Shown one piece after another: positions 15,688 through 18,789 of a stretch of 64,000 nucleotides of DNA. Source of the DNA: Octopus sinensis (lineage: Eukaryota); the NCBI RefSeq assembly GCF_006345805.1, contig NC_043013.1:30070001-30134000 (forward strand), written 5' to 3'. The position numbers and the translations under genes were made by a program. How positions within the stretch are numbered: position 1 is the stretch's first letter; each line of letters opens with the position of its first letter. A model generated the notes under the pieces. It was not told where the DNA came from. It did no database searches and saw only the letters and a program-made list of their open reading frames with translations.

Positions 15688-15954
15688 ATCCCTCAGCTCT
15701 AAGACACCTAATGAAGCAAGATTTTTACTGAACGCCCCTTTGATATTTTAATTGTTTCAGTCTCATGCCGGCGGCCATACCGTAGTACCACCTTAAAGAC
15801 GTTGGTCAAACGTATTTGATCAAAATTCTTGTTTTGGATCTGCTTCTTATTGTCTCTTTCTCTTTTAGCAAATCTCTTATTTACGGAGACGTAGATAAAC
15901 CAAAATTAGTCGTCAAAAATTCAACTGAATTATCATATACATTATTTACATTTT

Positions 15955-16000
15955 AACACAACGTTTCAGTTGATATACCCTCCAGCCTTCATCAGGTGTC
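15955..16000 (-). ncRNA. Minimal type I hammerhead ribozyme motif
   Basis: Reverse complement reads gacac CTGATGA a ggctg gagggtatat caact GAAA cg tt gtgtt: stem I gacac/gtgtt, canonical core, minimal palindromic stem III. Confidence 0.75.
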
Positions 16001-16272
16001 TTAGGGAAATTTCGAACGTGGGTTTTCATTCCTAAGGTATTTTTCGATGTTGTTATTATTATTACTATTATTATTGCTGTTATTGTTGTTGTTGTTGTTG
16101 TTATTATTATTATTATTATTATTATTATTATTATTATTATTATTATTATTATTATTATTATTATTATCATCATCATCATCGTTATTATTATTATTCAGGT
16201 CACAACCTGGAATCGGACTCGGAATCTTGGGGCTAGTAGCTCGAGCTCTTAACCACTGCGCCCATGGACATA

Positions 16273-16327
16273 TGGCGTAGTGGTTAAGAGTGCGGGCCAC
16301 TAACCCCAAGATTCCGAGTTCGATTCC
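16273..16327 (+). promoter_or_regulatory. Pol III internal promoter (A and B boxes); mirrored copy on the minus strand at about 16208-16262
   Basis: A box tggcgtagtgg at 16273-16283; B box gagttcgattcc at 16316-16327. Confidence 0.75.
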
Positions 16328-16442
16328 AGGCAGAGAATAATGATAATAATAATAATAATAATAATAATAATAATAATAATAATAATAATAATAATAATAA
16401 TAATAAATAATAATAATAATAATAATAATAAAATAATAATAA

Positions 16443-17949
16443 TGGGGACGGAATAAGGTATTCAGAGATGAAGGAAAGGATCAGGAGAGAATGTTATCGA
16501 AGGGTGAGACCAATACTCAAGACAGAGCTGAATGCAAGAAACAGGATCGAAGCGATCAATGCATTAGCCATACCAGTCGTGACTTACAGTTTCAATATCG
16601 TTAACTGGTCAATTACTGAAATATGTCAGCTTGACAGAAAAATACGAAAACTGTTGACAATGCACAGAATGCACCACCCTAAGGCAGATACAGAACGACT
16701 TTATCTGCCAAGAAAAGAGGGAGGCCGTGGTCTTTTACAACTGGCAATAACAATGAAGATTGCTACAATTGGCCTAGACACCTATCTGAAAAAGTCTTAG
16801 GACTGGATGTTAAAACTTGTCTCAAAACATGAAAACAAGAAAGCATCATGCTCAGTAACAAAACAGGCAAAGGAATATCTAAGTGAATTCCGAATACAAC
16901 AAATTTCGGAATCAGAGATAGTCAGAAAAAGCTAAGCGCATGAAAACCCGTGGCAAAACTGCGGCCTTAGATATTCTGAATAATAAATGGCAAGAAAAAC
17001 CTCTCTATGGCAAATACCCAAAGAGAGCGAATAATGCAGATATTGACAAAGCCCTGACCCATCAATGGCTAATGGCCTCTGGCTTAAAATCTGAAACAGA
17101 AGGATTTATCATAGTAGCTCAAGATCAATGCCTACCAACAAGAAACTACCAGGCCAACATATTAAAGAACGGCAGTAGCCCAACATGTCGTGTATGTCGA
17201 CAACAAAATGAAACCATTGATCATGTTGTCTCCAAGTGCAGTCTTCTAGCACCTACGCAGTACCTCAACAGGCATGATAGAGCTGCACAATATATTCACT
17301 GGGTAATTTGCAAAAACCTGGATTTGCCCCATGAAAAAAAACTGGTGGAAACACAAACCACCTCCAGTGCTTGAAATTGACCACACCTCACTCCTCTGGA
17401 ACTTCACCATTCAAACTGACAGAAAGTTAGATGCAAACAGGCCAGACATCATATTGAAAGATTTCAGACAAAGAACATGCCTCCTCGTTGATATGACTGT
17501 CCCAATCGATATAAACGTATCTGTCAAAACCTACCAAAAACTGAGCAAATATAAAGATCTTGAAATAGGAATCAGCAAAATGTGGAACCTGAAGACTAAA
17601 ACGATACCTGTTGTCACGGGTGCCCTGGGAATGATAGCGAAAGGGGCTGATTACTACGTAACTTAGATACCAGGAAACCCCAAAATGGCAGAAATTCAAA
17701 AGATAGTGCTCATGGGAACTGCTCATATCCTACGCAAAATACTCTCTATGTAATCTCAAGGTTTAATACAAACTTTTTGTTTTTTAATTTATTTATTAGA
17801 CATTCACTAGTACAACACAAAAACCCACCCCCAAATATATGGCACACTGGGCATAACAACAACGTGAACTTCCAACCTGTTGTCTCTTGAGGTCTCTGGG
17901 TGAGACTTGGAGCCAACTTGTACAAACATAAAGCAAAAGTCAAACATAG
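16443..17949 (+). mobile_element. 5'-truncated Dong/R4-clade non-LTR retrotransposon (RLE endonuclease), inserted in (AAT)n
   Basis: RLYLPRKEGGRGL; CCHC knuckle CRVC..ETIDHVVSKC; RHD; RPD..D restriction-like endonuclease. (AAT)n on both sides. Contains stops and frameshifts. Confidence 0.9.
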
Positions 17950-18137
17950 AATAATAATAATAATAATAATAATAATAATAATATTAATAATAATAATAAT
18001 AATAATAATAATAATAATAATAATAATAATAATAATAATAATAATAATAATAATAATAATAATAATAATAATAATAATAATGATAACAACATCGAAAAAT
18101 ACCTTAGGAATAAGAACCCAGGTTCGAAATTTCCCCA

Positions 18138-18185
18138 AGACCCCTGATGAAGCCTGGAGAGTATATCAGTCGAAACGTTGTGTTA
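18138..18185 (+). ncRNA. Minimal type I hammerhead ribozyme motif (second arm)
   Basis: CTGATGA at 18144-18150, GAAA at 18172-18175, then cgttgtgtt; stems I and II carry mismatches. Confidence 0.65.
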
Positions 18186-18789
18186 ACGACAAACAAGATG
18201 AGAACAAATATCCGTCAAATGTAAATAATGTAAATAGTGTACATAATTTCTCATCTCTTAAATATAGAACTGAATTATCATATATCACTAAATATTATGT
18301 GCCATTTCAAAAATACTTTCTGATGAAAATACAAATGTGCGTAGTGTTACATAGTGTTGCAATTAGTCAGAGGCGGAAATATATAATATACCCGTTTTCT
18401 AAGTTAAGGATAATAACGCCACGGAAACGAGTGTGGTAATACACAAATGCACATTAGTTTTTCGCTTACTACTACTACTACTACTACTACTACCACCACC
18501 ACCACCACCACTAAAACCACCACCACCACCATCAGCACCACCATCACCGCTAGTAGTAGTAGTATTAGTATATATGTGTGTGTGTATACAGATATTTATA
18601 TAGGTTTGACTTTGCGTGTCAGTGTGCATATATTTGTATGCGTGCATGTGTGTGCCCCTGTGTGGTTATGCGTGTGTGTCTATTTGATTATGTTTCTTTT
18701 CTTTATTCTCTAACGGGTATTCCTTGTAAATGTGTATTCCTTGTAAATGCACGATATGAATCTAGCTGTATTTATCTGCCTTTCTACCT

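What the first reader, a model, noticed from the sequence alone, without database searches (positions are those of the whole stretch)
15923..18284. Candidate PLE-mobilised SINE: tRNA Pol III head, (AAT)n tract and hammerhead ribozyme, inserted as a head-to-head palindrome
Seen: removing the Dong insert leaves two divergent copies of one unit joined at their tRNA-like heads. Each unit has A/B boxes, then (AAT)n, then a body with CTGATGA-stem II-GAAACGTT. The left arm lacks the last ~35 nt of the right arm, and one 17-bp TSD flanks the whole structure. Established: minimal type I hammerheads with a palindromic stem III, and inverted 5' arm plus 3' tail architecture, are hallmarks of Penelope-like elements; classical SINEs rely on LINEs. 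Inference: this is a Pol III-driven, ribozyme-bearing non-autonomous element copied by PLE machinery (a SINE/retrozyme hybrid). The two arms could also supply partners for dimeric hammerhead cleavage.
Basis: partly seen in the sequence, partly recalled or inferred. Interest (0 to 1): 0.8.

Follow-up and report, generated by a model that had tools for sequence, protein, structure and literature searches.

The report
Penelope retrotransposon with tRNA-type promoter
The repeat is not a separate SINE but the terminal repeat of a protein-coding Penelope retrotransposon, which unusually carries a tRNA-like promoter and is likely transcribed end to end by RNA polymerase III, an enzyme thought unsuitable for autonomous retrotransposons.

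Summary
The structure is real, with small corrections. It is a two-armed, head-to-head insertion of an abundant family (4,991 exact matches of its hammerhead 26-mer). It is not an independent SINE or retrozyme. The head-(AAT)n-hammerhead unit is the pseudo-LTR of an autonomous Penelope/Poseidon element. Upstream it continues into a GIY-YIG-type ORF end. Downstream it runs in frame into the ORF start, and the 'body' itself encodes the protein's N-terminus. Full-length natural copies exist, and short copies show no diagnostic difference from ORF-linked ones. Inverted arms, a one-sided tail and a minimal hammerhead are known PLE traits. What I did not find in print is a tRNA-like A/B-box promoter inside an autonomous PLE. 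Two sequence tests favour Pol III use. 5' ends pile up at the tRNA-like start (12-19 times the upstream rate). The roughly 2.8-kb sense strand has no shared TTTT run, although other PLEs have about 2.4 per kb (P about 0.001-0.02). No RNA data show the polymerase. New variant of a known kind.

The parts
15928..15939 (.). Left target-site duplication (12 nt); 15923-15927 adds 5 nt that also match the element's 3' end
   Evidence: family TSD mode 12-13 nt
15940..16054 (-). Left (short, tail-less) arm: pLTR body = 5' UTR plus start of the PLE ORF; internal 31-nt deletion; ends near body position 150
15955..16000 (-). Minimal type I hammerhead, decayed (stem II mismatch), GUU site, palindromic ACGU stem III
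16053..16195 (-). (AAT)n tract of the left arm
16196..16262 (-). Left tRNA-like head, 5'-truncated at the A box; B box mutated
16260..16335 (+). Right tRNA-like head with 10-nt leader; A box 16273-16283, B box 16316-16327; 5' end at position -10, inside the family's 5'-end peak
16336..16443 (+). (AAT)n tract, 5' part
16444..17949 (+). Nested, 5'-truncated, frameshifted non-LTR element of REL type (Dong/R4-like) inserted in the AAT tract; not part of the PLE
   Evidence: zf-RVT E 1.7e-5, below cut-off; R2 protein 9nl2, E 0.065, weak; Dong name and TAA targeting recalled, with passages of PMC3774820
17950..18086 (+). (AAT)n tract, 3' part
18085..18272 (+). Right (long) arm: pLTR body. Codes the first ~54 codons of the PLE ORF; the family's in-frame ATG position (18110-18112) reads ATA here
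18139..18184 (+). Minimal type I hammerhead, decayed (mismatches in stems I and II)
18235..18272 (+). PLE 'tail': stretch between the two RT start sites, present on one arm only
   Evidence: PMC11167929
18273..18284 (.). Right target-site duplication (12 nt)

Best explanation
[quoted passage not shown] Shown: the element's order (head, AAT, hammerhead/ORF start, RT, thumb, GIY-YIG-type end, stop, 33 nt, head again), the arm geometry, the 5'-end peak and the absence of shared TTTT runs. Inferred mechanism: Pol III would start about 8-18 nt before the A box and read pLTR-ORF-pLTR without meeting a terminator. The PLE protein would nick both target strands 12-13 nt apart and prime one cDNA at each of two internal sites about 35 nt apart (body ~150 and ~188). 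The two cDNAs would join at their far ends by microhomology. Priming in the first pLTR would give short SINE-like arms ending at the RNA 5' end, as here; priming in the second would give ORF-bearing copies. PLE identity about 0.95; Pol III-made template about 0.55-0.6; translation of that same RNA about 0.3.
For: ORF end upstream of the head; head downstream of RT in 20 of 30 RT-anchored loci; body directly joined to the ORF N-terminus in 19 of 30 loci and 48 exact junction matches. Body plus ORF start aligns in one frame with P0001 residues 18-144, 47% identity, E 8e-39. RT PF00078 E 1.5e-9; sister to P0001, support 99/97. Full-length natural copies, with L441 starting at position -4. 54 of 89 anchors have a divergent partner and 0 a convergent one; 47 long+short, 7 short+short, 0 long+long pairs. 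5' ends: 36 of 55 arms at risk end at -14..+5, 0.047 per nt against 0.0025-0.0039 upstream; 18 of 24 in a head-anchored set; 7 direct template jumps at -15..+2. TTTT: 0 observed against 3.8-5.5 expected, P 0.002-0.017, while same-genome controls give 9 vs 8.8, 6 vs 7.5 and 8 vs 9.6; no site shared by more than 10% of copies on 7 references, background 2.41 per kb, Poisson P 0.001.
Against: There is no direct evidence for Pol III. RNA-seq of three runs was strand-symmetric, with low ORF depth and no start pile-up at the head. A 12-nt near-palindrome at -11..0 could itself favour junctions there. 5 of 13 ORF-linked 5' pLTRs extend more than 30 nt upstream of the head, so read-through RNAs also served as templates. 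The TTTT test is one lineage, so one data point. One of 50 outside PLE ORFs also lacks TTTT, the background holds a TTTT-free stretch of 1,834 nt, and GGGG runs were also absent from the column-majority letters. No outside PLE locus showed an A/B box in its pLTR. How an uncapped RNA would be translated is unexplained.
Confidence: 0.58

Rival explanations
1. An ordinary Pol II-transcribed Penelope/Poseidon element that passively captured a tRNA-derived SINE or pseudogene with an (AAT)n tail in its pLTR. The 5'-end peak would come from the palindrome or from a Pol II start at that place, and the lack of TTTT would be chance.
For: Known PLEs have Pol II-type promoters in the pLTR (passages of PMC8557442). 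Head plus AAT looks like a simple SINE. There is a palindrome at -11..0, read-through templates exist, and no cloverleaf is kept.
Against: The peak persists in arms without palindromic overlap and in direct jumps. The A and B boxes are intact at the family-majority level. The lack of TTTT was predicted before it was counted and is not seen in controls.
Confidence: 0.27
2. Split model closest to the first reader: Pol III makes only short pLTR RNAs, many of them from short copies that act as a self-sustaining SINE mobilised in trans, while the ORF is expressed by Pol II.
For: Short arms vastly outnumber ORF-junction copies (4,991 vs 48 exact matches of different motifs). Paired arms share derived non-CpG variants (33 vs a null mean of 11.3), which suggests several source loci, though conversion between arms could also do this.
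Against: No diagnostic difference between 96 short and 48 ORF-linked pLTRs. 28 of 61 long 3' ends reach position 190 or beyond, into ORF-start sequence. The model does not explain a TTTT-free ORF. The unit is not a SINE by origin.
Confidence: 0.13
3. A LINE-mobilised SINE with L1-type twin-priming inversions, or a tandem retrozyme copied through circular RNA.
For: The AAT tracts attract a non-LTR element (this window; L400, L405, L409). A hammerhead is present.
Against: Both arms repeat the same segment, unlike twin priming. The 3' end is a PLE ORF start, not a LINE tail. No head-to-tail arrays permuted at the cleavage site were seen in 89 anchors.
Confidence: 0.02

Closest known systems
Penelope/Poseidon PLEs, e.g. 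PAc of Anolis (PMC11167929)
   Same: RT then GIY-YIG-type domain in one ORF; pLTR overlaps the ORF start and holds a minimal hammerhead inside the first codons; two RT start sites define a 30-40 nt tail; inverted 5'-truncated copy next to the insertion (PMC8557442).
   Different: The pLTR here contains a tRNA-like A/B-box head and an (AAT)n tract, 5' ends cluster at that head, and the sense strand has no shared TTTT. The ORF reading frame through the hammerhead differs from that of the Anolis protein P0038.
Paired minimal hammerheads on opposite strands in Schistosoma mansoni (PMC4209133)
   Same: Two minimal hammerheads 100-700 bp apart on opposite strands, read there as truncated PLEs.
   Different: That paper does not contain the words tRNA or Pol III.
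TRIMp3: Helenus, Ajax, Cassandra (PMC10886601)
   Same: A small-RNA-derived Pol III promoter placed inside the terminal repeat of a retrotransposon, possibly by SINE insertion.
   Different: Those are non-autonomous LTR elements of 311-1,263 bp. The paper argues that their autonomous partners must use Pol II. Here the carrier is a ~2.8-kb protein-coding PLE.
Metazoan non-LTR retrozymes (PMC7761336; bioRxiv 10.64898/2026.07.22.740005) and Schistosoma Sm-alpha (recalled)
   Same: Hammerhead-bearing repeats tied to PLE pLTRs; Sm-alpha is recalled as tRNA-related.
   Different: Retrozymes are tandem arrays with circular RNA intermediates and no ORF. This family is dispersed, inverted, TSD-flanked and continuous with its ORF.
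R2 retrotransposons (recalled; passages of PMC3774820)
   Same: An autonomous element whose RNA is not made from its own Pol II promoter, with a ribozyme near the 5' end.
   Different: R2 is co-transcribed with rRNA and uses an HDV-like ribozyme to free its 5' end. Here the hammerhead site lies inside the ORF.

Membership tests
Penelope-like element (Penelope/Poseidon) | PLE-type RT with thumb in a single ORF | tested here: met
   PF00078 E 1.5e-9; 127 homologues, nearly all with PF00078+PF28514+PF26215, best 53% identity, Anolis protein 36%; tree
Penelope-like element (Penelope/Poseidon) | C-terminal GIY-YIG endonuclease | tested here: inconclusive
   A GIY-YIG-type motif pattern is seen by eye, and the region aligns with the C-terminus of P0001 at 49-55%. 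The Pfam scan of that region gave no family.
Penelope-like element (Penelope/Poseidon) | pLTRs, direct or inverted, overlapping the ORF start | tested here: met
Penelope-like element (Penelope/Poseidon) | 30-40 nt tail at one end only | tested here: met
   3' ends are bimodal (82 short, 61 long); 47 long+short, 7 short+short and 0 long+long of 54 pairs
Penelope-like element (Penelope/Poseidon) | Minimal type I hammerhead in the pLTR | tested here: met
   Aligned with 9 other PLE hammerheads; stem II 92% paired, 5 of 5 pairs change on both sides, 0 of 500 shuffles. The core was selected by pattern, so its invariance is by construction.
Hammerhead ribozyme | Self-cleavage as monomer or dimer | not testable with these tools
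   No cleavage-site pile-up in RNA reads, which is uninformative; the window copies have broken stems
tRNA-derived SINE | A and B boxes at tRNA spacing | tested here: met
   likeness to genomic tRNAs z 5-7 against shuffles, isotype not resolved among 27 genes
tRNA-derived SINE | Element begins at the head and has no ORF of its own | tested here: not met
   The head is preceded by the ORF end and followed by the ORF start
tRNA-derived SINE | Lineage distinct from its autonomous partner | tested here: not met
   No fixed difference between 96 short and 48 ORF-linked pLTRs; a sample, not the whole family
tRNA-derived SINE | Transcription by Pol III | tested here: inconclusive
   Indirect support from 5' ends and missing TTTT; RNA-seq uninformative
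Non-LTR retrozyme | Head-to-tail tandem units, each with a hammerhead | tested here: not met
   Dispersed single or divergent arms in 89 anchors
Non-LTR retrozyme | Circular RNA intermediate | not testable with these tools
   No back-joints were among the joints shown for three RNA runs; the libraries are not suited to this

The most novel reading that the evidence does not exclude
An autonomous, protein-coding retrotransposon driven by a captured tRNA-type promoter: Pol III transcribes about 2.8 kb through the whole reverse transcriptase-endonuclease ORF, which was purged of oligo-T terminators. The same promoter makes its terminal repeat spread as thousands of SINE-like copies, and the uncapped RNA may also be the mRNA.
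Probability: 0.4. Interest if true: 0.82.

Novelty: new variant of a known kind. Interest (0 to 1): 0.62.

Why it matters
Autonomous retrotransposons are taken to use Pol II or to ride on host transcripts, and Pol III is reserved for short non-autonomous elements. A 2024 paper on Pol III-promoter TRIMs states that their autonomous partners must use Pol II (PMC10886601). A PLE with a tRNA-type promoter and a terminator-free ORF would be a natural counter-example. It would show one route by which a 'SINE' arises with no separate partner, as the terminal repeat of its own autonomous element. It would also raise the question of cap-independent translation. In practice, annotation pipelines may count such PLE pLTRs as SINEs. 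The family also gives a large natural record of PLE integration: one long and one short start per insertion, 12-13 nt TSDs, and arms that share source variants.

Tried and rejected
(1) Looking for the partner among GIY-YIG Pfam hits: none of 30 loci shared the body. The parent was found by following the sequence upstream of the head.
(2) An intron idea (an ATG in the hammerhead core, with a GT-AG intron over the tail). Rejected: the unspliced frame aligns with P0001, and no such skip was among the joints shown for the RNA reads.
(3) Separate SINE subfamily: no diagnostic sites. ORF-linked copies show more CpG decay, but the two sets came from different searches.
(4) RNA evidence: no RNA holder was listed. 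Three raw RNA runs added by species label were strand-symmetric and cannot show polymerase, start or cleavage.
(5) A replicate of 'tRNA head plus TTTT-free ORF' in 80 metagenome PLE loci: none. L309 has a tRNA-like stretch upstream that is not repeated at its 3' end, and L307 lacks TTTT but has no A/B box. The DNA of the nearest relative P0001 was not available.
(6) Folding z-scores of the hammerheads and the head were not significant.
(7) The tRNA isotype was not resolved; likeness to tRNA-Arg(ACG) is recalled only.
(8) Earlier findings of this scan: nothing returned.
(9) An ESM Atlas search and one PDB search on the nested element gave no name.

Full report
OBSERVATION. The structure is present as described. 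Two units point away from each other and meet at their heads, with a 3-nt overlap at 16260-16262. Each has a tRNA-like head, an (AAT)n tract and a body with CTGATGA..GAAACGTT. A 1.5-kb frameshifted REL-type non-LTR fragment lies in the right tract (the name Dong is recalled). Four corrections apply. The left arm also has an internal 31-nt deletion. The 17-nt repeat is a 12-nt TSD plus 5 nt shared with the element's end. The left B box is mutated. Both window hammerheads have mismatched stems. Neither ARAGORN nor Rfam recognised the head or the hammerhead.

THE FAMILY. The genome is an animal assembly of 2.7 Gb; its other repeats look octopod to me, which is recall and was not tested. The body gave 4,255 candidates and the head 973. 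Exact patterns gave 4,991 and 2,659 matches, with 0 in the reversed controls. Of 30 head-anchored loci, 28 have the body downstream. For an unbiased set I took the first 100 listed hammerhead matches: 30 came as loci, and the other 70 were merged into 61 regions, of which 60 were fetched. One duplicate was dropped, leaving 89 anchors. Of these, 54 have a divergent partner arm and none a convergent one. The 3' ends are bimodal: 82 short (mostly body 140-170) and 61 long (180-199). The 54 pairs are 47 long+short, 7 short+short and 0 long+long. Flanking repeats of 11 nt or more were found in 35 of 54 (24 of them 12-13 nt, one mismatch allowed), and 19 gave only 9 nt or less. Copies differ from the column majority by about 5-8%.

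WHAT IT IS. Some copies extend 5' of the head. Following that sequence led into a coding region with PLE-type RT, thumb and GIY-YIG-type motifs, ending 33 nt before the head. Of 30 RT-anchored loci, 20 have the head downstream in sense. At the other end, the body runs straight into a Penelope-type N-terminus in 19 of 30 loci (48 exact junction matches). The body itself is coding: from the hammerhead onward it aligns in one frame with residues 18-144 of P0001, an 847-aa PLE protein (47%, E 8e-39). The protein has 127 longer homologues at E<=1e-30 and is sister to P0001 (99/97, 26 rows). Nine fetched loci include full-length natural copies such as L441 (head from -4, body, ORF, head) and L448. 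So the 'SINE' is the pLTR of an autonomous Penelope/Poseidon element. Comparing 96 short with 48 ORF-linked pLTRs showed no fixed difference; the significant sites were CpG decay or small gaps. The hammerhead matches those of other PLE loci, with covarying stems.

WHAT IS KNOWN. An inverted 5'-truncated copy and a one-sided 30-40 nt tail are standard for PLEs (PMC8557442, passages). In vitro, the Anolis PLE protein cuts and extends both strands and starts at two internal RNA sites that bound the tail; its hammerhead lies in the first codons (PMC11167929, parts 1-2 of 4). Paired minimal hammerheads on opposite strands were already read as truncated PLEs (PMC4209133, part 1 of 4 and passages). 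Retrozymes have been tied to PLE pLTRs (PMC7761336, passages; bioRxiv 10.64898/2026.07.22.740005, part 1 of 5 and passages). Pol III promoters inside terminal repeats are known for non-autonomous TRIMs only (PMC10886601, passages). I found no report of a tRNA-type promoter in a PLE in the searches. Two cephalopod repeat papers list Penelope, Dong-R4 and many unclassified SINEs without such a link in the passages seen. Repbase, Dfam, subscription papers and supplements were not seen, and the repeat may already carry a SINE name.

IS THE HEAD A WORKING PROMOTER? Two indirect tests. First, 5' ends. Of 96 head-bearing arms, 17 overlapped their partner by 6 nt or more, mostly at a palindrome, and were set aside. 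Of the remaining 79, 55 reach position +5 (zero is the base 3 nt before the A box), and 36 of these end between -14 and +5. That is 0.047 per nt, against 0.0025-0.0039 upstream and 0.005-0.011 within the head. A head-anchored set gave 18 of 24 (two loci shared with the first set). Seven direct template jumps also fall at -15..+2. This fits an RNA 5' end where a type 2 Pol III start is expected (established knowledge). Second, terminators. I predicted that Pol III transcription through the ORF would need a sense strand free of TTTT. No TTTT site is shared by more than 10% of copies along seven natural references. Four separate natural open stretches (2,193 nt) have 0 against 3.8-5.5 expected (P 0.002-0.017), while three same-genome PLE controls and the nested element meet expectation. 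Thirty-four outside PLE ORFs of like T content have 2.41 per kb (Poisson P 0.001 for 2.8 kb). The nine long copies carry 0-2 each, at scattered places.

AGAINST. It is one lineage. One of 50 outside ORFs also has no TTTT, and GGGG was absent from the majority letters too. The palindrome at -11..0 could attract junctions. Five of 13 ORF-linked 5' pLTRs extend well upstream of the head, so read-through RNAs were also copied. RNA-seq reads cover the pLTR deeply and the ORF thinly on both strands alike, and say nothing on the polymerase. No replicate was found among 80 outside loci. Translation of an uncapped RNA is unexplained; the protein could come from Pol II read-through.

MECHANISM. Shown: anatomy, arm pairing, TSD length, 5'-end peak, no shared TTTT. 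Inferred: Pol III makes a pLTR-ORF-pLTR RNA. The PLE protein primes one cDNA from each target strand, one at each internal start site, and the cDNAs join by microhomology. Starts in the first pLTR give the abundant short arms. Paired arms share derived non-CpG variants more than chance (33 vs 11.3, maximum 25 in 2,000 shuffles, 80 pairs), which fits a common source RNA or later conversion. The two arms cannot form a hammerhead dimer in cis; the two direct pLTRs of a full element could. This window's copy is likely dead: the right head is cut off from its body by the nested element, and the left B box and both hammerheads are damaged.

VERDICT. The architecture is known PLE biology. The tRNA-type promoter in an autonomous PLE, with signs of full-length Pol III transcription, is a new variant worth testing. 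Interest 0.62.

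Noticed in passing
window 2458-2860: A near-perfect 403-nt palindrome (98%) with a spacer of a few nt at most, flanked on the left by (TA)n; fold-back or MITE-like.
   Followed up: no
window 11554-14418 (+): LINE ORF2 in two long open frames: apurinic endonuclease (PF14529) and RT (PF00078, E 6e-30).
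   Followed up: partly
window 37946-38601: Head-to-tail array (period 184, about 3.7 copies) of another abundant repeat that recurs many times in the window, e.g. 4315-4553 and 15470-15688.
   Followed up: no
window 3423-4514 (-): A 364-codon open frame over a (GCT/GTT) repeat region, with no Pfam hit.
   Followed up: partly
window 62747-63433 (-): A 229-codon frame that looks like a Tc1/mariner transposase fragment by eye; no Pfam hit at E 0.001.
   Followed up: partly
L158, L160, L162, L163, L171, L176, L177, L179, L180: Many copies read pLTR, about 200-260 nt of ORF start, then a second truncated pLTR. The clustered jump point suggests a further RT start site or RNA end in the ORF.
   Followed up: partly
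L400, L405, L409, L034, L056: The (AAT)n tract of this pLTR is a frequent landing site for other elements, including the Dong-like family seen in the window.
   Followed up: no
L061-L090: The genome holds several other GIY-YIG PLE families (149 matches), one with open frames of about 780-880 codons, so likely recent.
   Followed up: partly
window 26294 and 54847; L069, L070: Other tRNA-like heads with A/B boxes, belonging to different repeat families.
   Followed up: no
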